A stretch of DNA of 64,000 bases from Rhodospirillales bacterium. Its GTDB lineage: Bacteria; Pseudomonadota; Alphaproteobacteria; MPNO01; UBA2964. Below the pieces are notes generated by a model. The model worked only from the letters and a program-made list of their open reading frames with translations, ran no database searches and had not been told where the DNA came from. Location of the stretch: positions 137,132 through 201,131 of the forward strand of contig JAYOLL010000003.1 in the NCBI GenBank assembly GCA_038120295.1. Reading direction: 5' to 3'. Positions 10,090 through 38,034 of the stretch are shown here, piece after piece (within the stretch, counting starts at the first letter, position 1; every line of letters starts with the position of its first letter). A program made the position numbers and the translations under genes.

Positions 10090-10151
10090 GCCCGGAGTCT
10101 AGTCAAGCGTTGTATCGGGGGCAATCGTTCAGGAGCGTTCGCGTAAATACA

Positions 10152-12293
10152 TCACGCGCCGGTCTGGATGGACCCGAGCGTCTTGAAGATCAGACGGATA
10201 AAAATCGAATCCGAGGGTTGCACATCTCTGTCCTGAGTAAACGTTCTGCTAAAGTCGACCCGGGTGGTGAAGCAGTCGCACTCATATTCCAGAAAGAACT
10301 GATGGCGTAACGATTCGCTGGTCTGCAGGTCGCGCAACGTCGAGCCGCCGACTTTCCAGTCAGGAGTAACCTGTGACGTGAATCCCAGGTGAATTTCTTC
10401 CCTGTCCGAGAATTCGCCCGAACCGGTACTCTCGTCGAAAAAGCCGTAATTGACTGTGACATTCAGGGCGCGCGGCCCTATCGACGCCGTCAGTTCGTTC
10501 CGGGCGGGAGAGAAATCATCCTTGTTAAGGCGAAACCGGTACTGAAAGCTCAGGGGCGCTGAGGGCTGGATATTCACCCTGCCAACGATATCGGAAAAAT
10601 GGTCATCCAGGCCGGACCTGACGTCGAAGGTGTCGTCTCTGCGTAGCCGGTAGCTCTGTCCGATGAAGGCATCCGAGTATCCGCTTTGGCCGTAGACCGC
10701 CATTTTTAGCCCGTAATAGGCCCTCTTCCCTCCTTCAACGCGGTCGAGGCCGGTAAACTTGTTGCGGCTCAGGAGGTTCGTGTCGTCGAATTCGAGGTCC
10801 TGGCTGTCTTCGTTTGAAATCGAGTCAGGGTTTCCGCCATTCGGGGCGATCATGAAGCCGGCGACAGGCTCCAGGACTTGCGTCATCGGACCATTGCTGC
10901 GTGACAGCGGGAACCGCCAGTCAAGTCCTGCGCGTGGAAAAGCCCGACCGCTGAAGCCGGATTTCAGATCGTTGGCGGGGCGACCGGGAACCCGTACGCT
11001 GTTGGACCAGTATGCGTCAGTCTGAAGGTCGACATACAGCCGGTACACTTCTCCGGTCCGGGCGATGTGTGGTAGTTCCCATCCGGTCTTGAGCGACAAC
11101 CGCCTGCTATCGGTCCCGCCCGTTCGCTGTAATACAAGGACATTACCGTCCACGAGCCATCGGCCGCCGGCAATACCGGGTTCGCTAACCCCGCTGAAAT
11201 CGAGTAAGGGGGCGACGATGGGCGTGTTTCCCGGGCTGTCCCGTTCTCGCAGGCCGCGCCAGTGATACGCCTGCATCGCTGCGTAGCTGTCTCCCCTGAA
11301 ACCTTCCAGAAAAAGGTGATTGGTCAGGGTATCCCGAGAATCGAACCCGTACCGGTTGAGATAGGTGTCGTCGCTAGCCAGCGCTATGTCCGCGCCCGTT
11401 CGCCAGGTCTGGTCAAGGTCGAACCTGACTTCGGAAAACAGATGACCGCGCGCAGAATCGTCATCGTTGGTGTCACTGCCCAAGGTGCCGCTGGCTTCCG
11501 CGGTCAGTTCGCCGTGGGCGAATCGCTGCCGATACTCTCCCGCCAGCACCGGGCCTTCATCCGTTGTCAGGATCGGACGAATCGTCGCGTCCTTGTCCGG
11601 GGCGATCGCCCAGTAATACGGAGTCTCGACGACGAAACCGAGATTGGAGTCGCTGCCAGCCCTCGGCGTCAGGAAGCCGCTCTGCCGACGCACCGTAGGG
11701 TCCGGATGGGACAGGTACGGGGTGTAGAATACCGGTATTCCCGCGAACTCGAGGAACGCATCCTGATACTCCACGATACGTTCTTTCTTGTTATGGCGGA
11801 TCTTCTCGGCCTTTACCTGCCATATTGGCTTATCGGCGATGCAGGTACGGCAGGGGGAGTAAACCGCCTTGTCCATGATGGTGACATTGCCCGCCGAGTG
11901 CCGCGCGCCCGCCGCCGCGATACGGGAGTCGTCGGCGAGCAGGACCCGAATATTCCTTACGACCCCGTCCTTCAGGTCTCCGGTCAGTTCGGCGTGATCC
12001 GCGAAGATGACGTCGCCGGTTCCCTGCATCAGGACGACATTTCCCGTGGCGGTTACGATTTCTTCCTTCTGGTTGTAGCTGACAGTGTCCGCACGGAGGA
12101 TGTTTTCACTGTGGACAATCTCTACATTGCCGCGCGCCGTAACGATGCCCAGCTCCTGCGCATAGTCGACGCTGTCCGCCTTGAACAGAAGGTCCAGCCC
12201 CTGACCGGAGGGGGCTGGCGCCTGGGCCGCTGCGCCCGACGTCAGGGCGCATTGCAGAACAAGCAGCCCAAGAATTTTCCGGATACGTTCCAA
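10152..12293 (-). CDS. lptD: LPS-assembly outer-membrane protein LptD
   Basis: 713 aa; signal peptide, OstA N-terminal domain followed by large beta-barrel region; lptD-surA-pdxA-rsmA synteny. Confidence 0.85.
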   Translation of the reverse strand: MERIRKILGLLVLQCALTSGAAAQAPAPSGQGLDLLFKADSVDYAQELGIVTARGNVEIVHSENILRADTVSYNQKEEIVTATGNVVLMQGTGDVIFADHAELTGDLKDGVVRNIRVLLADDSRIAAAGARHSAGNVTIMDKAVYSPCRTCIADKPIWQVKAEKIRHNKKERIVEYQDAFLEFAGIPVFYTPYLSHPDPTVRRQSGFLTPRAGSDSNLGFVVETPYYWAIAPDKDATIRPILTTDEGPVLAGEYRQRFAHGELTAEASGTLGSDTNDDDSARGHLFSEVRFDLDQTWRTGADIALASDDTYLNRYGFDSRDTLTNHLFLEGFRGDSYAAMQAYHWRGLRERDSPGNTPIVAPLLDFSGVSEPGIAGGRWLVDGNVLVLQRTGGTDSRRLSLKTGWELPHIARTGEVYRLYVDLQTDAYWSNSVRVPGRPANDLKSGFSGRAFPRAGLDWRFPLSRSNGPMTQVLEPVAGFMIAPNGGNPDSISNEDSQDLEFDDTNLLSRNKFTGLDRVEGGKRAYYGLKMAVYGQSGYSDAFIGQSYRLRRDDTFDVRSGLDDHFSDIVGRVNIQPSAPLSFQYRFRLNKDDFSPARNELTASIGPRALNVTVNYGFFDESTGSGEFSDREEIHLGFTSQVTPDWKVGGSTLRDLQTSESLRHQFFLEYECDCFTTRVDFSRTFTQDRDVQPSDSIFIRLIFKTLGSIQTGA

Positions 12294-12299
12294 GGTCCC

Positions 12300-13394
12300 T
12301 TACCCGTCCTCTTTGTGGAACAGCCAGCCGATACCCAGCAGCAGCCCGACAGTCGCCGGACTCCATGCTGCGAGCAGGGCAGGAAGACGGGCTGAAAGAC
12401 CGAGAGCATAGGCAACGTCGGTTGCAAAATAGATGACGAACCCTGTAACGACGCCAAGCGCAATTGTTGCTGTCGTTCCCCCTCTTCGATGCTGCTGCAG
12501 GGTGAAGATCGCAGCGAACAGGACCATCGCACAAAGAAGAGCCGGGTCCGCGATCTGGGAATACCAGTACAGCCTGTGGCGCAGACCGCTGAAGCCTGCA
12601 TTCTCGAGGACGGTGATAAAGCCTGGCAGCGCCCAGAAAGACATTGTTTCAGGTTTGGCGAAGCTGTCCTGAATGTTTTCGCGGGTCAGGTCCGTGTTCA
12701 GGTGGAGCGTGCCTGCCTCGGACGATCGGCGTTCGGGGGCGGACGTACGGGCGTGTCCCAGTCGCCACCGCCCTGCTTCGAGAAAGGCGTGTCGGGCGTC
12801 GATGCGGGAGACGAACCGCTCGTTCTTGTCGAACTGGAATACGATGACCCGGTCAAGCCGGGTAGCGTTGGGTTCGATTGCGTTCGCATGCAGGATGTAA
12901 TGGCCATTCGACGATTTTTGCTGGAGCCAGAGCCCTTCATCGTCCAGCGCCGCAAGACTTGTCTTCCCCTGGATGTACCGCGCCTCCAGCTGTTCAAAGC
13001 GAAATATCATGGCTGAAGAAAAGGGGCTGTAGATCGTGATCTTAACGACCCCCATGACAACCGCGACGATCAGTACCGGCGCCAGAATTTCCCACGCGGA
13101 AACGCCTGCCGCCCGCGCAACGACCAGTTCACGATGCCTGTTGAGCCGCCAGAACGCCATCATGCCGCCGAACAGAACGGTGAAGGGTATTGCCTTCTGG
13201 GCCATGTGCGGAAGTTTGAATGCCGCCATGGAGATCACATGAACGAAGGTGACGTCTTCCAGGCTCGACGTTCGGCGCTGGAGTTCGATTGTGTCGAACA
13301 GCGCGATTAGCGTCGTCAGGATCAGAAAAATACTGAACCACCAGAACAGAAACTGGCGGGCGACATATCCCGAAAATGTTGCACGAACTTTCAT
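12300..13394 (-). CDS. lptG: LPS export ABC permease LptG
   Basis: 364 aa; 6-TM YjgP/YjgQ permease family; second gene of the lptF-lptG pair. Confidence 0.8.
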   Translation of the reverse strand: MKVRATFSGYVARQFLFWWFSIFLILTTLIALFDTIELQRRTSSLEDVTFVHVISMAAFKLPHMAQKAIPFTVLFGGMMAFWRLNRHRELVVARAAGVSAWEILAPVLIVAVVMGVVKITIYSPFSSAMIFRFEQLEARYIQGKTSLAALDDEGLWLQQKSSNGHYILHANAIEPNATRLDRVIVFQFDKNERFVSRIDARHAFLEAGRWRLGHARTSAPERRSSEAGTLHLNTDLTRENIQDSFAKPETMSFWALPGFITVLENAGFSGLRHRLYWYSQIADPALLCAMVLFAAIFTLQQHRRGGTTATIALGVVTGFVIYFATDVAYALGLSARLPALLAAWSPATVGLLLGIGWLFHKEDG

Positions 13395-13407
13395 TTGCCG
13401 ATGGAGC

Positions 13408-14526
13408 TCAACCCGATTTCCCCAGCCTGTTTCCCGTCATCCACGAACGTCCAACCGGATGCCAGCCCGCCAAAACAAGAGCCGCAAAAATCGTCGGAAT
13501 CAGGGGGATCAGATACAGGACAATTGCGAGTTCGGTATATTTTTCCCCTATATTTTTGAAGGAAATCTGGGCGAGTTGTATCACGACGACGATACCGACC
13601 GCGGCCAGAATTCTTGAGGTTTGACCGCGCCGGTTCAGATCGCCGCTCAACAGGAGAGTCAGGGCGACCATCACGAAAGCGACGGGCAGCAACGGCTGAG
13701 CCAGACGGTAGTGGGCCTCGATATATAGCTTGTCTGCGAGCCATTCGTTCGGTTTGAGCCTGAAGAGCTCCGACAGATACCGCTCGCGCGGCTCGCGCCA
13801 GTTCCGTTGCTGGTTCCCTGAAACGGTCTGGATATCGAAGGAATATCGCTCGAAGTATAGCAAGGCCAGGCGACCGTCCTTTTCATCGACCTGCTGCCGG
13901 TTGCCGTTGACCATTTCGACCCGAGGTCCACTGGCGCCGCTAACGATTCTGCCGTGCTCAGCCATCATGGTGACCGGGCGTTTCGGATTTCTGGAATCAT
14001 GGACGAGGATTCCAAGCAGATCCCCGTTGGACCCTCGGCTCCGGACGTAAACGGTGACGCCCGAAGCTACCTTGTTGAAGACACCCTCCTGCAACAACAC
14101 GGCAGGGATGCTGTTCCGGATCGAATGTTGCAACTCCCTGAACTCACGGTATGTCGTCGGCATCAGGTAGGTTGTGAGAAAATAGCCCGCGATTACGACG
14201 AGCGCCGACAGGATGAGCGCCGGACGGGCAATATCGTATCTGCTGCACCCTCCGGCCCGCATGATGACGAGTTCGCTGTCCGATATCAGCCTGTTGTATA
14301 CGAACAGGGTCGAGGCGAATAACGCTATCGGCAGAATGATCGTCAAGAAGGTTGGCAGGAGCAGAAGGGTAAAATAAACGAACAGAGGCGCCGACAGTCC
14401 TCTGTTCACGATCATCTCGATAAACCGTAAGGACTGCGTCAGCCAGACGACGCAGGTAAGGGTTACGGTTACGAGAACCGTGCCTGTCAGCAGTTGGCCG
14501 AAAATATAGGAATCGATCCGTCGCAC
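13408..14526 (-). CDS. lptF: LPS export ABC permease LptF
   Basis: 372 aa; YjgP/YjgQ family, N-terminus MRRIDSYIFGQLL typical of LptF; first gene of the lptFG pair. Confidence 0.8.
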   Translation of the reverse strand: MRRIDSYIFGQLLTGTVLVTVTLTCVVWLTQSLRFIEMIVNRGLSAPLFVYFTLLLLPTFLTIILPIALFASTLFVYNRLISDSELVIMRAGGCSRYDIARPALILSALVVIAGYFLTTYLMPTTYREFRELQHSIRNSIPAVLLQEGVFNKVASGVTVYVRSRGSNGDLLGILVHDSRNPKRPVTMMAEHGRIVSGASGPRVEMVNGNRQQVDEKDGRLALLYFERYSFDIQTVSGNQQRNWREPRERYLSELFRLKPNEWLADKLYIEAHYRLAQPLLPVAFVMVALTLLLSGDLNRRGQTSRILAAVGIVVVIQLAQISFKNIGEKYTELAIVLYLIPLIPTIFAALVLAGWHPVGRSWMTGNRLGKSG

Positions 14527-14777
14527 GCGGAGATTATAGGCATTCAGGGCGTGGCTGTCATAAGAAAGCGCCGGGCTAAGGCGCCCGAATTACCGGCAAA
14601 TGCGTCGCGTGTCCGTGGGCTTCAGGATCCAGCCTGTTCGGATATCGATGGACGCCTGACTTCATTGGAGCCCGCGCCGGGTGATGAGTCCCGGGGCTCG
14701 ATTCGGCCCCCTGTTTTCGTCATGCCGGCTTTGTCATACCCTCGTGCGCGCAACGCGAAAGGGCGGAAGCAACCGAT

Positions 14778-15833
14778 ATGATTTACAGAGTCGTTTTCAT
14801 AAATCTGGGTATTCTGCTCGTGCTGCTCGTGATCGCCGAGCTGATCTTCGGGAACTGGCTGTGGGGCCCGAATTACGGGGCGATGAATATCCCCCGGAAC
14901 GTAGATCGCTATTTCGACACGTCAGGTCTGTACAAAAGCGGGGGGAGGTCCCGCTACAGCCGGGATGCTCTCGGGCTTCGGGGGCCATACGACGACGCAG
15001 GACGTATCGACGTCCTGACCATCGGCGGCAGTACGACCAACCAGCTCTTTATCGACGACGACAAAACATGGCAGGCCCATATGAGGCGTCGCTTTTCCGA
15101 GGCTGGTAAGCCGGCAATCGTAGTCGATGCGTCGGTGGACGGTCAGTCAGCGCGAGGCCATATCGCGGCGTTCGACCGTTGGCTTTCGCAGCTCCCGGGG
15201 CTAAAAGCGAAATACGTTCTGGCTTATGTCGGCATAAACGATGTTGCGCTCGACGACGCTGCCATATACGATTCGATGGAAGCAACCGACGCATCGCGCC
15301 GCTTCAGAAACGCGATCGCCAACAAGAGCGCGCTTTATGCCCTGTTTCGCACCATACGCGGCATGATCAGGGCCCGTGAAATGCATCTTGTGCACGGCAG
15401 CGCGCCGATACAGGGGCTTGACTGGGGAAAGTACCGTCCCGTCGAGGAACCCGCCCCGCCTGACCCGGCTCGTGAAAGGGATCTTGCCGCCTATGCCGAA
15501 CGGTTGACGGTGCTGATCGGAAGAATTCGGGCTTTCGGCTCGAAGGCAGTTCTTGTAACCCAGCCTACCGCAGAGTTTCGGGTGCGGGACGGCTGGGTCT
15601 GGGTTCCACGAAACAGGGATGGCGGTCTTAACCCGTCGGGATTTCACATCATGGACAGGTTCAACCGGGTAACCATGAGTACCTGCCGCGCTGCCGGCGC
15701 GATCTGCGTCGATCTGGCGCGTACCGTCGCATTTGAAGAAGGTGATTTTTACGATCGGGTACACAACACGCCGGCAGGCACTCGCAAGGTCGGCGAATTT
15801 CTGTACAGGCAGTTGAAGGACCGACTTCATTAG
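14778..15833 (+). CDS. membrane-anchored SGNH/GDSL-type hydrolase (putative esterase, deacylase or O-acyltransferase)
   Basis: 351 aa; N-terminal TM helix; SGNH blocks: I = LTIGGSTTNQ (Ser nucleophile in a GGS variant), II = DASVDGQS, III = YVGINDV (GxND), V = DRVHNT (DxxH). GC is lower than in flanking core genes. Confidence 0.6.
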   Translation: MIYRVVFINLGILLVLLVIAELIFGNWLWGPNYGAMNIPRNVDRYFDTSGLYKSGGRSRYSRDALGLRGPYDDAGRIDVLTIGGSTTNQLFIDDDKTWQAHMRRRFSEAGKPAIVVDASVDGQSARGHIAAFDRWLSQLPGLKAKYVLAYVGINDVALDDAAIYDSMEATDASRRFRNAIANKSALYALFRTIRGMIRAREMHLVHGSAPIQGLDWGKYRPVEEPAPPDPARERDLAAYAERLTVLIGRIRAFGSKAVLVTQPTAEFRVRDGWVWVPRNRDGGLNPSGFHIMDRFNRVTMSTCRAAGAICVDLARTVAFEEGDFYDRVHNTPAGTRKVGEFLYRQLKDRLH

Positions 15834-15972
15834 AAGGTCCTGGGCTGCCTGTTTTCCCGTCGCTGCCGCCCCGGCCCGGCCCGGCTCGGATAACCCGCTC
15901 GGACAACCCGGTGGACATTGAAAATCAGCCGATGCAGACTGAGCCAACATTGCGGATTTCGTCATCGGATTA

Positions 15973-16980
15973 ATGGTCACCAATGCTACGTCGGCGCCAA
16001 AGATCGCCGTCGTCATACCGAGCTATCGGGTTCGTGCAAATGTCGGGGCGGTGCTGAGCGCAATCGGTCCGGAGGTGTCGGCGATCTATGTCGTCGACGA
16101 TGCATGTCCTGAAGGCAGCGGCCGATATGTCGAGGAGATTTCGACAGACCCTCGTGTGTCCGTAATTTTTAATCCCAACAATCTCGGCGTGGGAGGCGCG
16201 ACGGTGGCCGGATTTCGGCAGGCTGTGGCCGATGGCGCTGAAGTGATCGTTAAAATCGATGGCGACGGCCAGATGAATCCGGCGGCCATTCGTGAATTTG
16301 TCGGCCCAATCCTGACGGGCGAAGCGGATTACACGAAAGGCAATCGTTTCTTCGATCCCGAAGGCGTCGCTTCGATGCCGGTTGTTCGGCTCATAGGGAA
16401 TGCCTGTTTGTCATTTATGGCGAAACTTTCAACGGGCTATTGGCACATTTTCGATCCGACAAACGGCTATTTCGCCATTCACGCCGATATCGTAAAGGTG
16501 ATGCCGCTGGAAAAAATTTCACAGCGTTATTTTTTTGAGACCGATCTTTTGTTCCGCTTGAATATATTGACCGCGCGGGTCGTCGATATCCCTATGCTGT
16601 CGCATTATGGTTCGGAGAACAGCGGGCTGAATCCTCTTCGGGAAGTTCTGCCTTTTGCGTGGGGGCATGCCCGTATTTTTTGCAAACGTATCCTGTATAA
16701 TTATTTTATTCGGAACTTCAGTGTCGCCTCGCTCGAACTTGTACTGGGTCTGTTGATGCTGGTTTTTGGCATCGTGTTCGGGGTCGTGAACTGGGGGACA
16801 GATGCGCCCGCTACGGCTGGCACCGTTATGGTGGCGGCGTTGCCCTCGATCCTGGGCATCCAGTTTTTGCTTGCGTTCGTCGGTTACGATATCCAGGCGG
16901 TGCCACGAACGGCGCTTCACCCGAAGCTGACATCGTATGCTGAAGCTCTGGCAGGCCCTGGCGATGAAGACGCGCCGTGA
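15973..16980 (+). CDS. GT2 polyprenyl-phosphate glycosyltransferase (GtrB/ArnC/DPM1-like)
   Basis: 335 aa; N-terminal GT-A domain (VVIPSY…, DDACPEGSG, KIDGDGQ DxD-type motif) and two C-terminal TM helices, the architecture of GtrB/ArnC. Confidence 0.75.
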   Translation: MVTNATSAPKIAVVIPSYRVRANVGAVLSAIGPEVSAIYVVDDACPEGSGRYVEEISTDPRVSVIFNPNNLGVGGATVAGFRQAVADGAEVIVKIDGDGQMNPAAIREFVGPILTGEADYTKGNRFFDPEGVASMPVVRLIGNACLSFMAKLSTGYWHIFDPTNGYFAIHADIVKVMPLEKISQRYFFETDLLFRLNILTARVVDIPMLSHYGSENSGLNPLREVLPFAWGHARIFCKRILYNYFIRNFSVASLELVLGLLMLVFGIVFGVVNWGTDAPATAGTVMVAALPSILGIQFLLAFVGYDIQAVPRTALHPKLTSYAEALAGPGDEDAP

Positions 16981-17122
16981 AAACAGGTTGTCCAGCATGT
17001 CGTGAGGCTTGTTTGCGGGAATCTGTATCCCTGTCGGCCAATATATATTTTGAGCTCTTCGAGACGGTAGACCGTCCTGGTTCGCCGGCATGTATCACGC
17101 CTTGTTCAATGTAGGAAAAATA

Positions 17123-17491
17123 ATGGCAAAGCTGGATCTGGTTTTGATTCTGTTCTCCGTGGCCGTAATCGGCATTGGACAGATTATTTTCAAGTTTGCT
17201 GCACGCGAAATGAAAATAGATTTTGGCCAGTCAACTATCCTTATCGTGAAGACAAACCTTTTTCCCCTGGGCCTCGTTCTTCTTACGGTAACTTTATACT
17301 GTATTTCGACTCTGGCGTGGGTATATGCGTTGAGAACGGTGCCATTATCGGTGGCTTACATGTTCAATTCCCTCGCCTTCGTCCTTGTGCCTCTGGCCGG
17401 GTTTCTCATGTTCGGGGAACAGATGCCCAGATATTTCATCCTTGGGCTCGTAATGATTATCGGCGGTATATATTTTATTTCGCGTGCGTGA
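17123..17491 (+). CDS. small 4-TM DMT/SMR-like membrane protein (ArnE/ArnF-like putative polyprenyl-P-sugar flippase subunit)
   Basis: 122 aa from the ATG with AGGAAAA RBS (ORF track starts at 17090); four hydrophobic helices, GQIIFKFAA … VPLSVAYMFNSLAFVLVPLAGFLMFGE … GGIYFI pattern as in ArnE/EamA-like small permeases; strikingly low GC (about 46%). Confidence 0.6.
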   Translation: MAKLDLVLILFSVAVIGIGQIIFKFAAREMKIDFGQSTILIVKTNLFPLGLVLLTVTLYCISTLAWVYALRTVPLSVAYMFNSLAFVLVPLAGFLMFGEQMPRYFILGLVMIIGGIYFISRA

Positions 17492-17520
17492 TGCCGGTAG
17501 CGCTCGCTCTTGGCGCCGCG

Positions 17521-19440
17521 CTATTCGGCTGGATGAGGCCAGCTTTCTTCCGGCACCCATTTTCCGCTGTCTTTTCTGAGCAACCAGGAGCGGCTTGCCT
17601 TCAGGTCGACCCCCAGGGCCTGTTTCAGAGACGGGGTGAAATCATATAGCCAGATATGGCTTATCTGTTTGTCTTCTATGCGTTTTCGAACGGATTCCGG
17701 AGTCAGGCGGTTCCATGATGTGACCCTGTCAACCAGGGCTGTCACCGGCAACAGGTGATATCGCATGATGATCAGGTACTGGCCATTATCGCTGGCGTCG
17801 ACGAGCAGGATCCGGTCGCCGGCAGCTAGCCGGTCGGCAAGCGCGCGACCGGTTTCCCAAGCATACTGGTAACGCGGATGCGTATCGAAGCGCAGTTTTT
17901 TCGCCATACCGACCGGAAGGGCGATAACCAGCACGATGGCTGCCATATGTGCCCATGACGGCATTCTGCCGGGCAGGTAGCGCCGCCAGAGCAGGGCTGC
18001 GCTGAATGCCGCGAAAAGGAGGCAAACGCCCCCCAGATGCGTGTTGTAGCGCCAGTAAGATGCGGCATACAGGGCTTCGCCGCTGCCGAACGCTGTCACA
18101 TAGGCGAACAGAAGGAAAAAATTGTAGGACAGGAACATCGTCCCGGTGATGATGGCGAGGCGGCTGAAAGCCCCCCTGTATCGCCAAATCGCGAGGACAC
18201 CGGCCACGACCGCTATTGTCATGACGCCGAAATATCCCCCTTTCTTACTGGCGATCAGCGCCATACGCGCGATGATCTGCGGGATTTCCCGGATAAGCCA
18301 CTCGGAATAGGGCAGGAACTCAAAATCGCCTTCAGTAATGTGAAAAGCGACATGCAGCTTCCAGAGAAGGTAAACGATCAAGGGAAACAGGAATATCCTG
18401 GCGGCGAGCCGCGCCGTCGCTTTCCACCGGATGGCAGGATCTCGTAACACCAGGATGCTAAGCGCAAGTCCGAGCGCCATCAGAAAAACGATATTGACCT
18501 GTTTGAGCCCGATCATGGCCATCGACACCAGCCCAGCCTGCCAGGCAAGAGACCGGGCCTCGTCTTCGTTGTCGATCGCGAGCGCGTTTGTTGACAGCCA
18601 GACCAGGGCCGCTGCGAATCCGACGAGGACGCCGGTTGGGGCATCCGCATAGGCGCTAAAGACCAGTCGTGTAACGTATGTCGGGTTAAGGATGGTGACC
18701 GCCAGCGCTCCCAGCGCGCACACCGCCCAGCCGGCCCGAGTTGCGTTAAGCGTATCGTTTGTCGGACCTGCGCCGTCCGATGTCCGGGACGCGGTAGAGA
18801 CAATAATCCGCGATATCAGAAGCCCGAATGAGAGAAGCAGCAGGACCGAAAAGATCGTCGACGCATTGATGACGAAAGCGCCGGTCACTCTGCTCGCCAT
18901 AAAAGCTACAAGTGAGTTGCCGTAGGGGTAGGCTGGAAAGACTGCGAAGCTCCTGGGCAGGTCCGAGCGTGGGACCGAATCGTGCTCGAAGAGATATCTG
19001 GCATGGGCCAGCCAGTGCGAAAACTCATCCCACTGTGTAGGAAGCATGGACGCGGCGATAGCAATGAGCGGGAGGGCGACAAGTGCGATACGGACAACTC
19101 CCGGATCCGTCAGGCGCCCGTTGCGTCGAAAGACGACGGTAGCGCCCGCGCATGCCCCCAACCCTAGCGCCGCCGCAACAGCAGTGAAGTGGGTTACGCC
19201 AATCGATGCGGCCAGTGTGAAGGCTGCTACAGCGATACCGAGACCAAAAACCAGGTCGCCCTCCGGGCGTCGTGTCGGGCCGCCTGCAAAAGCGCCGAGG
19301 CCGATCAGGAGGACGGCAACAGCCAGAACCGCTGCCAGCCCGCCGAGTTCGTTGGAGGATGGGATCAGAAGGTTTAGATGGGACAGCAACGTGAAGTCGT
19401 CCTGATGGCTGGGTGTGGCGGTCGCCCTGTACGGCAACAA
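17521..19440 (-). CDS. GT-C fold membrane glycosyltransferase (ArnT/PMT-like) with C-terminal soluble domain
   Basis: 639 aa; about 12 predicted TM segments over the first 470 aa then a hydrophilic C-terminal domain of about 170 aa; first extracytoplasmic loop carries WDEFSHWLAHARY (DE…ARY, reminiscent of the ArnT/PMT DExRYAE catalytic loop). Confidence 0.55.
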   Translation of the reverse strand: MLPYRATATPSHQDDFTLLSHLNLLIPSSNELGGLAAVLAVAVLLIGLGAFAGGPTRRPEGDLVFGLGIAVAAFTLAASIGVTHFTAVAAALGLGACAGATVVFRRNGRLTDPGVVRIALVALPLIAIAASMLPTQWDEFSHWLAHARYLFEHDSVPRSDLPRSFAVFPAYPYGNSLVAFMASRVTGAFVINASTIFSVLLLLSFGLLISRIIVSTASRTSDGAGPTNDTLNATRAGWAVCALGALAVTILNPTYVTRLVFSAYADAPTGVLVGFAAALVWLSTNALAIDNEDEARSLAWQAGLVSMAMIGLKQVNIVFLMALGLALSILVLRDPAIRWKATARLAARIFLFPLIVYLLWKLHVAFHITEGDFEFLPYSEWLIREIPQIIARMALIASKKGGYFGVMTIAVVAGVLAIWRYRGAFSRLAIITGTMFLSYNFFLLFAYVTAFGSGEALYAASYWRYNTHLGGVCLLFAAFSAALLWRRYLPGRMPSWAHMAAIVLVIALPVGMAKKLRFDTHPRYQYAWETGRALADRLAAGDRILLVDASDNGQYLIIMRYHLLPVTALVDRVTSWNRLTPESVRKRIEDKQISHIWLYDFTPSLKQALGVDLKASRSWLLRKDSGKWVPEESWPHPAE

Positions 19441-19499
19441 CCTATCAAACAGGTTCGATTCGTCCTACGGAACAGGCTTCGTCACAGCTTGTCGGTCCG

Positions 19500-20249
19500 C
19501 TAGTCGCGGAGTTCGATTACGAAAACCAGGTTCGAGACGATCCCCAAAAGCCGTATCGTTTCCAGACGACAGGATTTGATCCTTTCCCGCCGGTCGTTCG
19601 CTTCGATGATGGTTCGGAGTTCTTTCGCATCAAGGAGGTTCAGATTCGCTTCCTGAGCGAAAAAACTGAATCCCATCGATCTGAGAATTCTCCTGTGCCA
19701 CCGGCGGGGCAGCCAATGGAGGAAAGGCAGTCGCGTATGGAATTCCAGCGGGTGCCAGCGATTCGGCGTTGTAATGATCACGTAACGCCGGGCTGCGCCG
19801 ATGCAGCAGGATATCATCCGGCGCTGGTCGTCCATGGTTCCGACATGCTCGATTGTCGCGCTCGACATAACCAGGTCGTAGCGCCCGGTAGCGGAGTCGA
19901 TACGGGACGCGTCTCCAATGAGGACTCCGGAGACGGGGAAATCGATGTCGCGCTGCGGGTCGATCTGCTGATCCGAGAAGAGCGTGACGCGGGCATTTTC
20001 CACCAGCTTGCGGGCGAAGAAATTCGATGACCGGTGGTCGCTGTCCTTGGTTGAACCCACGTCGAGCACGTCATCTACAGTATCCAGCCTGACAAGGTCC
20101 GGCCTGAATATCCGGCTGAATATTTCGTCGCGTTTACGGGTGACGACACTGTCGACAAAACGGTCGAGCCGGTTGAAGAGGTTGACGGTGTATACGTTTT
20201 CGTTGATCGGCGACATTTCGATGGAACGGATTATGTGGTAGCACGACAA
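19500..20249 (-). CDS. class I SAM-dependent methyltransferase
   Basis: 249 aa; motif I VLDVGS, motif post-I/II YDLVMSSATIEHV; GC lower than core. Confidence 0.65.
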   Translation of the reverse strand: MSCYHIIRSIEMSPINENVYTVNLFNRLDRFVDSVVTRKRDEIFSRIFRPDLVRLDTVDDVLDVGSTKDSDHRSSNFFARKLVENARVTLFSDQQIDPQRDIDFPVSGVLIGDASRIDSATGRYDLVMSSATIEHVGTMDDQRRMISCCIGAARRYVIITTPNRWHPLEFHTRLPFLHWLPRRWHRRILRSMGFSFFAQEANLNLLDAKELRTIIEANDRRERIKSCRLETIRLLGIVSNLVFVIELRD

Positions 20250-20332
20250 TACCGGATTAATGGCCCTGGTCAGAGACTAATCTGATAGGTCTTTGCCGGC
20301 GCCTCGAACGATATACTGAATGGAGCCATCGG

Positions 20333-21835
20333 ATGCGACTGACCTTTTCCAGGATCGACCTGAAGCGCCAGGGGGCGATCGTCGCCCTTGTTTCCCAGAA
20401 CAAAACCCTTTCAGCCAGTGCGCAGGCGCTCGACAAGGCTACTGGCGGCGCGGTCGGAAACGCGATCGCCGCCAGCCGTTTTACCGGCGCCCTGGACCAA
20501 ACGCTTACCATCATGGCGCCGAATGGGATGAAGGCAGGTCGTATCCTGCTGATTGGCGTAGGCAAACCCGAAGATATCGACGAACTTGCCGCCCAGCGTA
20601 TCGGCGGTCGTATTGTTGCGGCGCTTGCCGATAGCGGAGAAAAAACGGCTTCTGTCGCGGTGGATGCGATCAAGGGAGTCAAGCTTTCCGCCGCGACAGT
20701 CGCAGCCAACGCAGCCTGTGGCGCGCGCCTCAGGAGCTATCGCTTCGATAAGTACCGAACGACGGAGAAAGCGGACAAGAAGCCGTCGCTCAACGCGGTC
20801 GCTTTCATGGTTCGCGACGACGCAGGCGCCCGCCGCCAGTTCGTTCCCCTGGAAAAGGTCGCCGACGGCGTTTTCTTCACCCGGGACCTGGTTTCAGAGC
20901 CGGCGAACGTCATCTACCCTGCAAGCTTCGCGCAGCGCGCGCGGGCACTCGCCAAGCTGGGCGTCAAGCTGCGCATACTCGACGAGGCGCAGATGAAAAA
21001 GCTGGGTATGGGTGCGCTTCTCGGCGTCGCCCAGGGCAGCGCCAACAAGCCCAGGATCGTCGCCATGAGCTGGAACGGCGCGCCGCGCGCCAAGGACAAG
21101 GCGCCAATCTGCTTTGTCGGCAAGGGCGTGACGTTCGATACGGGCGGTATTTCCATTAAGCCGGCCGGCGGCATGGAAGACATGAAATGGGACATGGCCG
21201 GCGCCGGTGTGGTGGCCGGACTCATGCATGCGCTTGCCGCGCGCAAGGCCAGGGTCAACGCGGTCGGCGTCGTCGGTCTGGTCGAGAACATGCCGTCGGG
21301 CACGGCCCAGCGCCCCGGCGATGTCGTCAAGACGATGTCGGGCCAGACGATCGAGGTGATCAACACCGATGCCGAGGGCCGACTGGTCCTGGCCGACGCC
21401 ATGTGGTGGGCGCAGAAGACTTTCAAGCCGCATACTCTGATCGACCTCGCGACGCTGACCGGCGCCATCATCATCTCGCTGGGCCATCATCACGCGGGCA
21501 TGTTCAGCAACAACGATGCGCTGTGCGATCAGCTCGCCGCAGCCGGCAAGGCGACCGGCGAGCCGGTCTGGCGGCTGCCGCTCGGTCCCGAGTACGACAG
21601 ACAGGTGACCTCACAGATCGCCGACATGAAGAATGTCGGCGGTCGCGATGCCGGAAGCATCACGGCGGCGCAGATCCTGCAACGCTTTATTCAGAAGGAT
21701 GTCGCCTGGGCGCATCTCGACATAGCCGGCGTCGCCTGGTCGAATTCGGCAAGCCCCATCGTGCCCAGGGGCGGGACAGCATTCGGCGTCCGCCTACTCG
21801 ACAGGCTGGTGGCGGATCACTACGAAAACAGGTAA
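20333..21835 (+). CDS. pepA: leucyl aminopeptidase
   Basis: 500 aa; M17 peptidase signature NTDAEGRLVLADA and metal-binding region; followed by holC as in most alpha-proteobacteria. Confidence 0.9.
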   Translation: MRLTFSRIDLKRQGAIVALVSQNKTLSASAQALDKATGGAVGNAIAASRFTGALDQTLTIMAPNGMKAGRILLIGVGKPEDIDELAAQRIGGRIVAALADSGEKTASVAVDAIKGVKLSAATVAANAACGARLRSYRFDKYRTTEKADKKPSLNAVAFMVRDDAGARRQFVPLEKVADGVFFTRDLVSEPANVIYPASFAQRARALAKLGVKLRILDEAQMKKLGMGALLGVAQGSANKPRIVAMSWNGAPRAKDKAPICFVGKGVTFDTGGISIKPAGGMEDMKWDMAGAGVVAGLMHALAARKARVNAVGVVGLVENMPSGTAQRPGDVVKTMSGQTIEVINTDAEGRLVLADAMWWAQKTFKPHTLIDLATLTGAIIISLGHHHAGMFSNNDALCDQLAAAGKATGEPVWRLPLGPEYDRQVTSQIADMKNVGGRDAGSITAAQILQRFIQKDVAWAHLDIAGVAWSNSASPIVPRGGTAFGVRLLDRLVADHYENR

Positions 21836-21853
21836 CGGCGTCGGCTTTTTCCG

Positions 21854-22309
21854 GTGACTGAAATCGGCTTTTACCATCTGACCCGGACACCTATCGACCG
21901 CGCCTTGCCGCAAATCCTAAAAAAGGCGGCGTCGGCGGGGAAGCGGTCGCTGGTCCGAACCGGGTCCGAAGAACGGGTAGCCGTTCTCAATATGCTGCTC
22001 TGGACATACGATCCCGCGTCCTTTTTACCTCACGGTACAGTGCAGGACGGAGATCCGGCGGATCATCCCGTTTTCCTGTCGACGTCTGAAAACAACGCCA
22101 ATAACGCGGAGGTCCTGATTCTGACGGATGGCGTGGAGGCAGAGCAGCCCGAGGCGTTCGAGCGCTGTCTCGAGATGTTCGATGGAGGCGATCCGGCTGC
22201 CGTCGACCGCGCCCGCGCGCATTGGCGGATTTACAGGGATAAGGGCTATTCGCTGACCTATTGGCAACAGTCTGAAACCGGCGGCTGGGAAAAGAAAGCT
22301 GACGGCTGA
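21854..22309 (+). CDS. holC: DNA polymerase III chi subunit
   Basis: 151 aa; HolC family N-terminus (IGFYHL…R), conserved pepA-holC pair. Confidence 0.8.
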
Positions 22310-22404
22310 CGTATGTCAGGAGGCTGTTGCCGACGGACCCGCGTCAGGCTATAAGGCCGCGCCTTCACAAAAACATCGGAAAATTACAAAGAGAGACTGG
22401 CTCC

Positions 22405-22827
22405 ATGGCCGTTGAACGAACGTTATCGATTATCAAGCCCGACGCCACGCGCCGTAACCTGACGGGCAAGATTGTAGCGATGCTGGAAGACGCTGGCCTG
22501 CGCGTTGTGGCGCAGAAAAGGATCCAGATGACTCGCGAAATGGCGGAAGGGTTCTATGCCGTTCACGCAGAACGCGCTTTCTTCGGCGATCTCTGCGAAT
22601 TCATGTGCTCCGGCCCGGTCGTGGTTCAGGTGCTCGAAGGGGAAAACGCCGTCGCGAAAAACCGTGAGGTGATGGGCGCGACAAACCCGGCGAATGCCGA
22701 TGAAGGGACCATCCGCGCCGAGTTCGCCGAATCGATCGAAGCCAACTCGGTCCATGGTTCGGATTCAGCGGAGAACGCCGCGATCGAAATAGCGTTTTTC
22801 TTTGCACAGGTTGAAATAGTCGGCTGA
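22405..22827 (+). CDS. ndk: nucleoside-diphosphate kinase
   Basis: 140 aa from ATG at 22405 (AGAGAG RBS); [14 protein letters not shown], active-site NxxHGSD (NSVHGSD). The ORF track's 22327 start is an unsupported upstream extension. Confidence 0.9.
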
Positions 22828-22853
22828 TTACGGTCGCCGGCTTCCAATATGCG

Positions 22854-22886
22854 AAAGGGCGGGTTTAAAACCCGCCCTTTATTTAT
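22854..22886 (+). terminator. rho-independent terminator downstream of ndk (bidirectional with the purN-side small ORF)
   Basis: AAAGGGCGGG-TTTAAAA-CCCGCCCTTT hairpin followed by TATTTAT. Confidence 0.7.
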
Positions 22887-22901
22887 CCGCACAACTTCGT
22901 T

Positions 22902-23027
22902 TCAGAGCATAAAATATGCCAGCAGCCCGAGCGCGGCGAAGACACCTGCGGTGCAGATAACTGCAAGGCGGCAGAAAATTCTCCAAACTTCCTGGCATTG
23001 GCGTGTAATAGCGTCGTCGTTCGCCAT
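22902..23027 (-). CDS. putative 41-aa single-TM small protein downstream of purN
   Basis: ATG..TGA ORF MANDDAITRQCQEVWRIFCRLAVICTAGVFAALGLLAYFML; one hydrophobic helix; sits between purN stop and the terminator hairpin, so it would be co-transcribed with purMN; weak RBS. Confidence 0.3.
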   Translation of the reverse strand: MANDDAITRQCQEVWRIFCRLAVICTAGVFAALGLLAYFML

Positions 23028-23071
23028 GTCGTTGCCCAATCAGCTTGCGGTTCCCGGATTCTATACCGTAA

Positions 23072-23752
23072 TTATGACGGTTTCGGAAGATGCGGCGTCC
23101 ACCCGTCGTCCGGATTAAGGTAAATCCGGTCCGTCAAATGCGTGCCTTCGATCCGTACGCGGCCGCCCTCGACGTGGGCGCGCCCCTCTGCGATTAGACG
23201 GAGGGCGAGGGGATAACAGCGATGCTCCGCTGTCAGCACGCGGGCGGCAAGCGTCTCGGCGTCGTCGTCCTCGTGAACCGGTACCGCCGCCTGGACGATA
23301 ATCGGGCCGTCGTCCATTGCGGGTCGGACGAAATGCACCGTGCAACCCGTAAAACGCACCCCGTCATCCAGTACACGCTGGTGCGTATCGAGGCCCTTAT
23401 AGGCCGGCAGCAATGACGGGTGGATGTTGATAAGCCGGTTCAGCCAATGTCCGACAAATTTCTCGGTTAGAAGCCGCATAAACCCGGCCAGGCAAACGAA
23501 TTCGATCCCGGCATCCGTCAGCCGATCGATGAGTGCGGCCTCGAACGGTTCGCGCCCGTCATAGTCCCGGTGGTTGATCGTCAATGTGGGGATGCCCGCG
23601 GCGGCAGCGCGTTCCAATCCGGCTGCACCCGGAACATTGGAAACGACGAGCGCGATCTCAGCCGGCGCGTCTTTCGGCGAGCAATCGTCGATAAGCGCCT
23701 GCATGTTGGTGCCGCGCCCCGATATCAGCACAGCCGTTTTCAGGCGCGGCAT
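23072..23752 (-). CDS. purN: phosphoribosylglycinamide formyltransferase
   Basis: 226 aa; [13 protein letters not shown], formyltransferase N…H…D motif (INIHPSLLP); overlaps purM stop. Confidence 0.9.
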
Positions 23753-24795
23753 AGGGATCCCGGATGCTCGATTGCCACCCGCTCGCCATCCGTTCTGACG
23801 ACCGTCCCGATCCTGAACACGGTTTCGCCGTGATCTTCGAGAATGGTTCCGGCCTCATCTGCGCCGTCCGGGGCAACCACAACCGCCATGCCGACGCCGC
23901 AGTTAAAGGTTCGCGCCATCTCGGACCCGGCGATACGTCCTTCGTCGGCCAGCCATCTGAACACCGGCGGCGCAGTCCAGGCTTCCGCGTTCAGCACGAC
24001 GCCGAGCCCATCGGGCAGAATGCGGGGTATATTTTCGATAAGACCGCCGCCGGTAATATGCGCAAGGCCGCGGACAAGGCCTGCCCGGTGTGCGGCCAGG
24101 CAGGCTTTTACATAAATCCGGGTCGGCGTCAGCAGGGACGCGCCGAGAGGGTCCCCGGAAAACGGTGCTGTCTCCGCGTAATCCAGTTCGAGCTCCTCGA
24201 CGATACGTCTGACGAGCGAAAATCCGTTCGAATGGACCCCCGATGAGGCGAGGGCCAGCACGATATCGCCTTCTTCGATGGTTGCGCCGGTCAGAATTTC
24301 ATCGCGCTCGGCGGCGCCGACAGAAAATCCGGCAAGATCGTAATCGTCGTTGGCGTACATGCCCGGCATTTCGGCTGTTTCGCCGCCGATCAGAGCGCAT
24401 CCTGCCTGCCTGCAGCCTTCCGCGATGCCGGCGATGACTTCTTCTGCACGCCTTGGGTCGAGCCGGCCCGTTGCGAAATAATCGAGAAAGAACAGGGGTT
24501 CCGCGCCCTGGACCACGAGATCGTTGACGCACATTGCGACAAGGTCGATCCCGACCTCGCTGTGGCGATTGGCGGACAAAGCGACCTTAAGCTTGGTTCC
24601 AACGCCATCCGTCGCGGCGACGAGGACGGGATCCCTGAAGCCCGCGGCAGCAATATCGAACAGGCCGCCGAAACCGCCGATTTCGACATCGGCGCCCGGC
24701 CGGGCGGTCGATCTTACGTGCGGTTTCAGCGCATCGACCAGCGCCGCGCCTGCTTCGACGTCGACGCCTGCATCCTTGTAATTACGTGTGTTAAT
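23740..24795 (-). CDS. purM: phosphoribosylformylglycinamidine cyclo-ligase (AIR synthetase)
   Basis: PurM sequence runs continuously (…[16 protein letters not shown]…GGFGGLFD…[15 protein letters not shown]…) upstream of the first in-frame ATG at 24579, up to a TGA at 24817-24819. There is no ATG, GTG or TTG in that stretch; upper coordinate set at an in-frame ATT (24793-24795) as a provisional initiator. Confidence 0.8.
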
Positions 24796-38009: not shown

Positions 38010-38034
38010 CCCGATTTTTACGGGGTAATTGCCT

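What the first reader, a model, noticed from the sequence alone, without database searches (positions are those of the whole stretch)
14527..20332. Five-gene, compositionally mosaic glycan-modification cassette inserted in the lptF|pepA divergent intergenic region
In many alpha-proteobacteria lptF-lptG and pepA-holC are direct divergent neighbours. Here 5.8 kb carrying five genes lies between them. The genes are a TM-anchored SGNH hydrolase; a GtrB/ArnC-like GT2 (polyprenyl-phosphate sugar synthase architecture: GT-A domain plus a C-terminal TM pair); an ArnE/ArnF-like 4-TM small permease; a 12-TM GT-C transferase with a DE…ARY loop motif and a periplasmic C-terminal domain (ArnT/PMT-like); and a class I SAM methyltransferase. 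GT2, small flippase, GT-C and a deacylase is the logic of known lipid A and envelope modification pathways: ArnC/ArnD/ArnEF/ArnT (Ara4N), Bordetella LgmABC (GlcN), Francisella FlmF2/NaxD/FlmK (GalN), Shigella GtrABC. Here the deacetylase slot is filled by an SGNH-fold enzyme rather than a CE4 or YdjC enzyme, and a methyltransferase is added. I cannot match the combination to a described system. Its position next to the LPS exporter genes lptFG-lptD points to lipid A or core as the target, but a periplasmic protein or another glycoconjugate is equally possible.
Basis: partly seen in the sequence, partly recalled or inferred. Interest (0 to 1): 0.75.

Follow-up and report, generated by a model that had tools for sequence, protein, structure and literature searches.

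The report
Layered periplasmic sugar-transfer locus beside lptF
Between the LPS-export gene lptF and pepA, a Rhodospirillales bacterium carries a lipid-carrier-dependent system for adding a sugar to an envelope molecule, built around a membrane glycosyltransferase family that no database describes, with its donor-making genes swapped in from another lineage.

Summary
Four family calls hold. These are a membrane-anchored SGNH enzyme with an intact catalytic set, a GT2 of the polyprenyl-phosphate-sugar synthase type, a 4-TM ArnE/F/EamA-like permease, and a class I methyltransferase fold with an atypical SAM loop.

This is not one inserted cassette. It has three layers:
- g4 is an old resident of the pepA|lptF junction across a Rhodospirillales clade.
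- g5 is shared only with the closest relatives.
- g1-g2-g3 (about 3 kb) replaces the AglJ-like GT2 that relatives carry downstream of g4.

g2 and g3 are 69% and 55% identical to a Mesorhizobium GT2-MT-EamA module and have low GC3.

The best reading is a three-component periplasmic glycosylation system. LPS is the favoured acceptor but this is unproven, and lptF keeps its own conserved promoter-like site. The SGNH enzyme is predicted periplasmic, so it does not fill an ArnD-like deacylase slot.

This is a new variant of a known kind, of moderate interest.

The parts
13408..14526 (-). lptF, the left flank (not part of the system). lptG and lptD follow it.
   Evidence: TIGR04407 at 3.9e-77 and PF03739 at 1.3e-73.
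14533..14561 (-). Promoter-like site of lptF (ATGACA-17-TATAAT), inside a block that is conserved upstream of lptF in relatives.
   Evidence: Matches 11 of 12 consensus positions. The block CGCTTTCTTATGACAG...TATA(A/G)T...GTG is conserved in the window, L081, L001 and L002 although the upstream gene differs.
14576..17520 (.). The species-specific replacement segment (g1-g2-g3). It stands where relatives carry a single AglJ-like 'type A' GT2 downstream of g4.
   Evidence: Homology to relatives stops at the lptF promoter block and at the g4 stop codon. g2 and g3 have low GC3.
14778..15833 (+). g1: an SGNH/GDSL hydrolase or acyltransferase with an N-terminal signal-anchor, predicted to face the periplasm.
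   Evidence: PF13472 at 1.2e-12. S85, G122, N154, D326 and H329 are invariant in 20 homologs. A hydrophobic helix spans residues 5-23. A homolog lies beside G4 and a type A GT2 in L025, and another lies directly upstream of lptF in L095.
15973..16980 (+). g2: a GT2 polyprenyl-phosphate sugar synthase ('type B'; a GT-A domain followed by 2 C-terminal TM helices).
   Evidence: PF00535 at 1.5e-16. Pyrococcus DPMS 5mlz at 3e-13. TM helices at 254-272 and 285-303. It is 65-71% identical to Mesorhizobium, Aminobacter, Xanthobacter and Aestuariivirga GT2s. It is 45-50% identical to GT2s beside G4 in L030, L047, L065 and L079. GC3 is 0.60.
17123..17491 (+). g3: a 4-TM EamA/ArnE-F-like small permease, the presumed flippase for the lipid-linked sugar. 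The longest ORF starts at 17090.
   Evidence: EamA at 4.2e-8, above the cut-off. ArnF 4.7e-13 and ArnE 9e-12, below the cut-offs. It is 55% identical to the EamA gene of the Mesorhizobium GT2-MT-EamA module. Gene callers give 122 aa. GC3 is 0.545.
17521..19389 (-). g4: a GT-C-fold membrane glycosyltransferase of an undescribed family, with a roughly 100-aa C-terminal periplasmic alpha/beta domain.
19500..20216 (-). g5: a class I methyltransferase-fold protein with an atypical motif I (LDVGSTKD).
   Evidence: Methyltransf_23 reaches only E 0.008. Homologs at about 40% identity carry PF08241 and PF13649, and one is fused to GtrA PF04138. The motifs were read from the alignment. AlphaFold pLDDT is 80.5, and all top Foldseek hits are SAM methyltransferases such as NodS, ChlM and BioC. 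The gene is present upstream of g4 in L001, L081 and the P0003 contig.
20333..21835 (+). pepA, the right flank (not part of the system). holC follows it.
   Evidence: NF002077 at 7e-221.

Best explanation
The locus is a three-component periplasmic glycosylation system that uses a polyprenyl-phosphate-linked sugar. It is centred on g4, a GT-C-fold transferase of an undescribed family.

Proposed steps:
1. g2 loads a sugar from a nucleotide sugar onto undecaprenyl phosphate at the cytoplasmic face. The architecture is shown; the activity is inferred.
2. g3 flips the lipid-linked sugar. This is inferred from family and context.
3. g4 transfers the sugar to an acceptor in the periplasm, using the invariant Asp of the QWDEF loop. 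The fold is shown; the chemistry is inferred.
4. g5, a cytoplasmic methyltransferase fold, probably methylates the sugar or the lipid-linked donor.
5. g1, a periplasmic membrane-anchored SGNH enzyme, probably adds or removes an acyl or acetyl group on the product.

The acceptor is most likely LPS (lipid A or core). I put this at about 0.45 within this model, and it is not shown.

Historically the locus has three layers. g4 is an old resident of the pepA|lptF junction. g5 was added in the closest clade. In this species, an imported SGNH + type B GT2 + flippase block replaced the usual AglJ-like GT2 partner.
For: - g2 has a GT-A domain plus 2 C-terminal TM helices. Its best solved relative is a Dol-P-Man synthase.
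- g3 is related to EamA and ArnE/F.
- A GT2 lies directly beside G4 in 17 loci. It is type A in L001-L007, L081, the P0003 contig, L025, L045 and L050. It is type B in the window, L030, L047, L065 and L079.
- The type A GT2 is AglJ-like (6e-60) and also has 2 C-terminal TM helices. The swap therefore exchanged one donor synthase for another.
- In Mesorhizobium the g2 and g3 orthologs form GT2-MT-EamA, convergent with a large polytopic membrane protein. That is the same geometry as g2-g3 against g4 here.
- The SGNH catalytic residues are invariant. An SGNH homolog sits beside G4 and a type A GT2 in L025.
- A methylating enzyme of some kind recurs beside G4: the g5 type, a class I MT, or a B12 radical SAM enzyme.
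- The three-component paradigm with 4-TM flippases is established (PMC11127046).
Against: - No enzyme activity, sugar identity or acceptor is shown.
- G4 is also adjacent to pepA where lptF is absent (L022, L028, L072). It lies beside groESL in 11 loci. The lptF adjacency may therefore be an inherited accident of where the gene first inserted.
- lptF has its own conserved promoter-like block, so co-transcription with lptFG is not implied.
- g1-g3 and g5-g4 are convergent units. None of the G4 loci other than this species' own contigs carries a g3 homolog.
- The glycine loop of g5 is non-canonical, so SAM binding is unproven.
- Foldseek ranks oligosaccharyltransferases above ArnT, so a protein acceptor is not excluded.
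Confidence: 0.65

Rival explanations
1. The machinery is the same, but the acceptor is not LPS. g4 would instead glycosylate another periplasmic or envelope molecule: an O-antigen or capsule side chain, osmoregulated glucans, peptidoglycan, or a protein (OST- or PMT-like). On this reading the position beside lptF is a historical accident.
For: - Foldseek's top hits are STT3A, AglB and PglB at E 7.5e-5 to 1.7e-3.
- The usual partner GT2 is AglJ-like.
- G4 stays beside pepA when lptF is absent (L022, L028, L072).
- G4 lies beside groESL or polysaccharide genes (WbuX-like, Wzx-like) elsewhere.
- lptF has its own conserved promoter-like block.
Against: - The g4 sequence has no WWDxG motif (read directly), and its C-terminal domain is only about 100 aa.
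- The junction arrangement with lptFG-lptD is kept across g4 identities of 36-63%.
- An SGNH homolog lies directly upstream of lptF in an unrelated lineage.
Confidence: 0.25
2. There are two unrelated units. g5-g4 would work with a donor made elsewhere in the genome. The imported g1-g2-g3 block would serve a different GT-C or pathway and merely landed here.
For: - The two units are convergent.
- g2 and g3 have different GC3 and their closest relatives are in Hyphomicrobiales.
- In Mesorhizobium the g2/g3 module pairs with a different large membrane protein carrying DUF7024.
- g2-type GT2s also occur alone or with other partners.
Against: - The block sits exactly where the relatives' partner GT2 was, and no type A GT2 remains in the 64-kb window.
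- Type B GT2s lie directly beside G4 in four other lineages.
- The SGNH homolog is linked to G4 in L025.
- The arrangement is fixed in every contig of this species.
Confidence: 0.1
3. This is the first reader's specific model: an Arn/Lgm/Flm-like cationic-sugar modification of lipid A, in which the SGNH enzyme replaces the CE4/YdjC deacylase that unmasks an amino sugar on the lipid carrier.
For: - g3 is nearest to ArnF and ArnE among the NCBIfam models.
- The locus is adjacent to lptFG-lptD.
Against: - g1 has a signal-anchor and is predicted periplasmic. The known deacylases act before flipping, on the cytoplasmic face (my own knowledge of ArnD and NaxD).
- g2 does not hit the ArnC model PRK10714, although a Mesorhizobium paralog does so weakly.
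- No ArnA-like or ArnB-like genes were found in the parts of the window that I annotated.
- The g4 profile is unrelated to the ArnT/PMT_2 family.
- The SGNH homolog also accompanies the other GT2 type (L025).
Confidence: 0.07

Closest known systems
Gtr-type three-component O-antigen glucosylation (GtrB GT2, GtrA flippase, serotype-specific GT-C) of Shigella and Salmonella phages
   Same: It uses a polyprenyl-phosphate GT2 with C-terminal TM helices, a small 4-TM flippase and a GT-C transferase, encoded side by side. The GT-C partner can be swapped modularly.
   Different: The flippase here is EamA/ArnE-F-like, not GtrA (PF04138). The GT-C belongs to a family with no Pfam model. The locus is chromosomal and housekeeping, not prophage-borne. 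SGNH and methyltransferase-fold genes are added.
Arn pathway (ArnC, ArnD, ArnE/ArnF, ArnT) for lipid A Ara4N
   Different: There is no ArnA or ArnB. g2 does not match the ArnC model. The g4 profile shows no sequence relation to ArnT/PMT_2. The extra hydrolase is a periplasmic SGNH enzyme, not a cytoplasmic-face CE4 deformylase.
Rhizobium/Mesorhizobium Rgt system (RgtE GT2 with RgtA-D/RgtF GT-C GalA transferases acting on lipid A and core)
   Same: It is an alphaproteobacterial system in which a lipid-linked sugar donor is used by periplasmic GT-C enzymes that decorate LPS. UniRef labels two Paramagnetospirillum G4 homologs with a name beginning 'Glycosyltransferase R', cut short in the output; I read this as the 'RgtA/B/C/D-like' label.
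   Different: Rgt GT-Cs are PMT_2-type proteins, whereas g4 has no PF13231 hit. No orthology to any rgt gene was shown here.
Citrobacter youngae pentofuranose three-component system (polyprenyl-phosphoribose synthase, EmrE/ArnE-like flippase, GT136 GT-C; PMC11127046)
   Same: It shows that new GT-C families paired with 4-TM EmrE/ArnE-like flippases carry out post-polymerisation periplasmic glycosylation.
   Different: Its donor is made from PRPP by a UbiA-type enzyme, not by a GT2, and it lies inside an O-antigen cluster.
Uncharacterised Hyphomicrobiales module GT2 - class I MT - EamA, convergent with a DUF7024 membrane protein (Mesorhizobium opportunistum CP002279, about 2.70 Mb)
   Same: g2 is 69% and g3 is 55% identical to its GT2 and EamA genes. 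The convergent geometry with a large polytopic protein is the same, and a methyltransferase is part of the set.
   Different: The window lacks the internal MT gene. Its large membrane partner is g4, not a DUF7024 protein. Its methyltransferase-fold gene (g5) is unrelated by BLAST and lies upstream of g4. No function is published for this module.

Membership tests
Three-component periplasmic glycosylation system (Gtr/Arn logic) | A GT2 polyprenyl-phosphate sugar synthase, made of a GT-A domain with C-terminal TM helices | tested here: met
   PF00535 at 1.5e-16. Two TM helices at 254-303. DPMS 5mlz at 3e-13.
Three-component periplasmic glycosylation system (Gtr/Arn logic) | A small multi-TM candidate flippase encoded beside the GT2 | tested here: met
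   g3 has 4 TM helices. EamA scores above the cut-off; ArnF 5e-13 and ArnE 9e-12 fall below their cut-offs. Flipping itself cannot be tested here.
Three-component periplasmic glycosylation system (Gtr/Arn logic) | A GT-C-fold transferase with an acidic residue in the first periplasmic loop | tested here: met
Three-component periplasmic glycosylation system (Gtr/Arn logic) | Transfer of the lipid-linked sugar to a periplasmic acceptor | not testable with these tools
   This needs genetics or biochemistry.
ArnT / PMT_2 (GT83/GT39-type) sequence family | A match to PF13231/PF02366 or to the ArnT NCBIfam model | tested here: not met
   No Pfam or NCBIfam hit at E<=0.01. The A1 profile gives 0 hits against PDB sequences at E<=10. 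hhalign against the co-resident PMT_2 family gives 3.9% probability.
Arn pathway | ArnC equivalog, an ArnD-type deformylase, and ArnA/ArnB sugar-nucleotide enzymes | tested here: not met
   g2 does not hit PRK10714. No CE4 or YdjC gene lies in the locus. No ArnA/B-like genes were found in the annotated parts of the window, but the whole genome was not available.
Oligosaccharyltransferase (STT3/AglB/PglB) | A WWDxG motif and a large C-terminal periplasmic domain | tested here: not met
   The g4 sequence has no WWD. The C-terminal domain is about 100 aa. There is fold similarity only, with Foldseek TM about 0.4.
SGNH/GDSL hydrolase superfamily (g1) | Block I Ser, block II Gly, block III Asn and block V Asp-x-x-His | tested here: met
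   S85, G122, N154, D326 and H329 are invariant in 20 homologs. PF13472 scores above its cut-off.
Class I SAM-dependent methyltransferase (g5) | A Rossmann-like MTase fold | tested here: met
   AlphaFold pLDDT 80.5. 212 PDB matches at E<=1e-3, and the top 50 are SAM methyltransferases or relatives with the same fold.
Class I SAM-dependent methyltransferase (g5) | Canonical motif I, (D/E)xGxGxG | tested here: not met
   The whole family has LDVG[SAV]TxD, whereas the GDA..PF..FD.V.S...EHV motifs are kept. Pfam support for g5 itself is only E 0.008.
Mobile or genomic-island insertion | Flanking repeats, an integrase or transposase, or a tRNA target | tested here: not met
   There are no meaningful direct or inverted repeats at the borders. 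The neighbouring genes are housekeeping.

The most novel reading that the evidence does not exclude
The G4 family is a previously unrecognised LPS (lipid A or inner core) glycosyltransferase of Rhodospirillales. It would be kept at the lptFG-lptD locus because modification is coupled to export. It would install a methylated and/or O-acylated sugar whose lipid-linked donor is tailored before flipping (by g5, B12 radical SAM enzymes or class I MTs) and after transfer (by the periplasmic SGNH enzyme). If so, the donor swap in this species changed the envelope chemistry of one marine lineage.
Probability: 0.15. Interest if true: 0.65.

Novelty: new variant of a known kind. Interest (0 to 1): 0.45.

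Why it matters
The work defines a GT-C family that Pfam, NCBIfam and PDB sequence searches all miss. The family has about 480 clusters at 50% identity with E<=1e-30 and occurs in 170 GTDB species, mostly Rhodospirillales.

The work also gives the family a testable role, a usual partner (an AglJ-like GT2) and a candidate pathway. It shows a natural exchange of donor modules around a fixed GT-C. That bears on how envelope glycan diversity arises and on glycoengineering.

If the acceptor is lipid A or core, this would be a new LPS modification route in abundant marine and freshwater alphaproteobacteria, whose LPS is almost unstudied.

Tried and rejected
- Sequence searches for g4 found nothing. 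I tried Pfam, NCBIfam, phmmer against PDB, and the profile against PDB. Only the fold comparison was informative.
- hhalign of the G4 profile against the ArnT-like PMT_2 proteins encoded in the same genomes gave 3.9% probability, so I rejected sequence-level ArnT membership.
- BLAST of g4 against the Mesorhizobium DUF7024 membrane protein, and of g5 against the Mesorhizobium methyltransferases, showed no similarity.
- The afdb50 fold library was not available.
- The search for mobile-element signatures found no border repeats.
- The Rfam scan of 9000-24000 found nothing at E<=0.1.
- Six literature searches found only the general three-component paradigm and nothing on this family. The topics were lptF/pepA glycosyltransferases, DUF7024, rgtE/rgtF, ArnT in Alphaproteobacteria, and methyltransferase + GT-C.
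- The contexts of SGNH homologs in metagenomes were heterogeneous: Rieske oxygenase, histidine kinase, carbamoyltransferase + MT, and a second SGNH. They gave no consistent partner beyond L025 and L095.
- I considered an operon with lptFG and downgraded the idea after finding the conserved lptF promoter-like block.


Full report
**1. Observation**

The region 14527-20332 holds five genes between lptF and pepA.

The left flank is lptF at 13408-14526 on the minus strand (TIGR04407, 3.9e-77), followed by lptG and lptD. The right flank is pepA at 20333-21835 on the plus strand (NF002077, 7e-221), followed by holC.

In E. coli K-12, holC-pepA and lptF-lptG are direct divergent neighbours. The junction here is therefore occupied by extra DNA.

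The five genes form two convergent units: g1, g2 and g3 on the plus strand, and g5 followed by g4 on the minus strand. Only 29 bp separate the stop codons of g3 and g4.

**2. What each gene is**

| Gene | Coordinates | Size | Main evidence |
|---|---|---|---|
| g1 | 14778-15833 (+) | 351 aa | SGNH/GDSL enzyme, PF13472 at 1.2e-12 |
| g2 | 15973-16980 (+) | 335 aa | GT2, PF00535 at 1.5e-16 |
| g3 | 17123-17491 (+) | 122 aa as called, 133 aa as longest ORF | EamA, above cut-off |
| g4 | 17521-19389 (-) | 622 aa | GT-C fold; no sequence-family hit |
| g5 | 19500-20216 (-) | 238 aa | class I methyltransferase fold |

*g1.* The catalytic residues S85, G122, N154, D326 and H329 are invariant in 20 homologs. 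The protein has a single N-terminal hydrophobic helix at residues 5-23. By the positive-inside rule this places the catalytic domain in the periplasm. That placement is an inference.

*g2.* It has two C-terminal TM helices. Its best solved relative is the Pyrococcus dolichol-phosphate mannose synthase 5mlz, at 3e-13. Its weak NCBIfam hits are AglJ, PpgS and dolichyl-phosphate hexose transferase. This is the architecture of a polyprenyl-phosphate sugar synthase.

*g3.* It is a 4-TM protein with an EamA match above the Pfam cut-off. Its best NCBIfam matches are ArnF (5e-13) and ArnE (9e-12), both below their cut-offs.

*g4.* The start codon position is conserved in relatives. The protein has no Pfam, NCBIfam or PDB sequence match, even when searched as a 30-sequence profile at E<=10.
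- The AlphaFold model is confident, with pLDDT 91.5 and pTM 0.92.
- Foldseek ranks STT3A, AglB and PglB first, at E 7.5e-5 and TM about 0.4.
- g4 is therefore a GT-C-fold protein whose nearest family is ambiguous.
D121 is invariant.
- The sequence has no WWDxG motif, and the C-terminal periplasmic domain is only about 100 residues.
- A profile comparison with the ArnT-like PMT_2 proteins encoded in the same genomes gives 3.9% probability.

*g5.* It scores only E 0.008 against Methyltransf_23.
- Its homologs at about 40% identity carry PF08241 and PF13649, and one is fused to a GtrA domain.
- Its model (pLDDT 80.5) matches only class I SAM methyltransferases such as NodS, ChlM and BioC.
- The whole family has LDVG[SAV]TxD in place of the usual GxGxG loop.

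**3. The locus is layered, not a single insertion**

The G4 family is of moderate size. It has 480 representatives at E<=1e-30 among 1.84 billion cluster representatives. It was found in 170 GTDB species, nearly all Rhodospirillales or unclassified alphaproteobacterial MAGs.

Mapping the window's proteins onto 80 of these loci gave the following arrangements:

| Relatives | g4 identity | Arrangement |
|---|---|---|
| L001, L081, P0003 contig | 59-63% | pepA \| g5-like, g4, GT2, lptF, lptG, lptD, surA |
| L002, L003, L005, L007 (L006 ends after the GT2) | 41-45% | pepA \| g4, GT2, lptF (no g5) |
| L010-L012, L014-L016 | 36-41% | pepA \| g4, lptF |
| More distant members | lower | Beside groES-groEL, a B12 radical SAM gene, or WbuX-like and Wzx-like genes; sometimes beside pepA without lptF |

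The GT2 of these relatives, which I call type A, is AglJ-like (6e-60) and also has two C-terminal TM helices. It shares only about 20-26% identity with g2. tblastn with g2 does not find it even at E 0.1.

In the window this type A GT2 is absent. In its place, in inverted orientation, stand g1, g2 and g3. Homology to the relatives resumes exactly at a block upstream of lptF. The species-specific segment is therefore about 14576-17520, roughly 3 kb and not 5.8 kb.

**4. Origin of the replacement block**

- The closest homologs of g2 (65-71% identity) are in Mesorhizobium, Aminobacter, Xanthobacter and Aestuariivirga.
- In Mesorhizobium opportunistum the g2 ortholog heads a module of GT2, a class I methyltransferase and EamA. 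The module is convergent with a 702-aa polytopic protein whose C-terminus is DUF7024. The EamA gene is 55% identical to g3.
- A similar GT2-MT-small permease set occurs in Aestuariivirga and in a MAG.
- GC3 is 0.60 for g2 and 0.545 for g3, against 0.70 (sd 0.06) for the window. g1, g4 and g5 are ordinary.
- No repeats or mobility genes mark the borders.
- The five-gene layout is identical in every contig of this species that was recovered.

**5. Do the parts work together?**

A GT2 lies directly beside G4 in 17 loci.
- It is type A in L001-L007, L081, the P0003 contig, L025, L045 and L050.
- It is type B (g2-like, 45-50% identity) in the window, L030, L047, L065 and L079.

The GT2-G4 partnership is therefore recurrent and tolerates both donor synthases.

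The g1-type SGNH gene lies beside G4 and a type A GT2 in L025, at 43% identity. It tracks the GT-C and not the donor gene.

A methylating enzyme recurs beside G4 in three unrelated forms. These are g5 in the closest clade, a class I methyltransferase in three loci, and a B12-binding radical SAM protein in about ten loci. The Mesorhizobium module also carries a methyltransferase. This suggests that the transferred sugar is methylated. That is an inference.

VTT/DedA genes and an ArnT-like PMT_2 gene with its own GT2 also recur nearby.

**6. Mechanism**

The best-supported model is the established three-component scheme (PMC11127046, read).
1. g2 charges undecaprenyl phosphate with a sugar in the cytoplasm.
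2. g3 flips the lipid-linked sugar.
3. g4 transfers the sugar in the periplasm.
4. g5 acts in the cytoplasm, and g1 acts in the periplasm, as tailoring enzymes.

What is shown: the families, the folds, the catalytic residues and the gene linkage. What is inferred: every activity, the sugar and the acceptor.

LPS is the favoured acceptor for four reasons.
- The junction with lptFG-lptD is kept across deep divergence of g4.
- An SGNH homolog lies directly upstream of, and co-directional with, lptF in an unrelated lineage (L095).
- G4 neighbours O-antigen-type genes in other genomes.

Three points count against this.
- lptF carries a near-consensus promoter-like site, ATGACA-17-TATAAT. It lies within a block conserved in four lineages whatever gene is upstream, so co-transcription is not implied.
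- G4 stays with pepA when lptF is elsewhere.
- Foldseek favours oligosaccharyltransferases.

**7. Comparison with known systems**

The locus works like the Gtr, Arn and Rgt systems, but it is not a member of any of them.
- It has no GtrA.
- It has no match to the ArnC, ArnD, ArnA or ArnB models.
- g4 has no PMT_2 signature.

It also conflicts with its association with G4 regardless of GT2 type.

**8. Verdict**

The locus is real and correctly described gene by gene. It is a layered locus around a resident, undescribed GT-C family, with a recent swap of the donor module. It is a new variant of a known kind, and interest is moderate at 0.45. The main open question is the acceptor.

Noticed in passing
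window 14533-14575 (-); L081 10880-10930; L001 12850-12900; L002 12880-12930: The block CGCTTTCTTATGACAG-N17-TATA(A/G)T lies just upstream of the lptF GTG start. It is conserved in four lineages although the gene upstream differs. It is probably the lptFG promoter.
   Followed up: partly
window ~19425-19470 (the g5-g4 spacer); L081 7920-7960; L001 9925-9965: A conserved motif, GGACGAATCG...TTTGATAG, lies in the 110-nt spacer between g5 and g4 in three lineages. It may be an internal promoter or a regulatory site.
   Followed up: no
L083 (Mesorhizobium opportunistum CP002279) 8001-17071: There are two tandem paralogous modules. The first is GT2-MT-EamA, convergent with a 702-aa DUF7024 membrane protein. 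The second is GT2-MT-296-aa membrane protein, convergent with a membrane protein of at least 578 aa that has no Pfam hit. I found no published function.
   Followed up: partly
L053, L066, L078: Two G4 paralogs occur in one locus. They are either in tandem or separated by WbuX-like amidotransferase and Wzx-like flippase genes.
   Followed up: no
L028, L039, L042, L044, L046, L047, L063, L064, L077, L080: A B12-binding radical SAM protein lies directly beside G4. Its best but sub-threshold NCBIfam hits are P-methyltransferase, BchE and HpnJ models. Its role is unknown.
   Followed up: partly
L020, L031, L048, L053, L054, L059, L061, L063, L064, L074, L076: In many distant lineages G4 lies immediately downstream of groES-groEL. 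Upstream there is often a VTT/DedA gene, an ArnT-like PMT_2 gene and a GT2.
   Followed up: partly
L095 1034-8682: A g1-type SGNH gene (42% identity) lies directly upstream of, and co-directional with, lptF-lptG-lptD-surA in an unrelated lineage. An acyl-CoA dehydrogenase gene precedes it, not pepA.
   Followed up: partly
L086 1957-12327: A g2-type GT2 lies beside MBOAT, AlgX-like and Acyl_transf_3 genes (an O-acetylation set), a 144-aa small protein, a 543-aa protein with no Pfam hit, and ManC.
   Followed up: no
L088 7941-8406: The last 466 nt of this 8.4-kb metagenome contig, inside pepA, do not align with the window. The rest is 99% identical. This is either strain variation or an assembly join.
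   Followed up: no
window 38029-39453 (+): A response-regulator-GGDEF protein is encoded in the window. GGDEF genes also lie beside G4 in L047 and L050. This is probably a coincidence.
   Followed up: no
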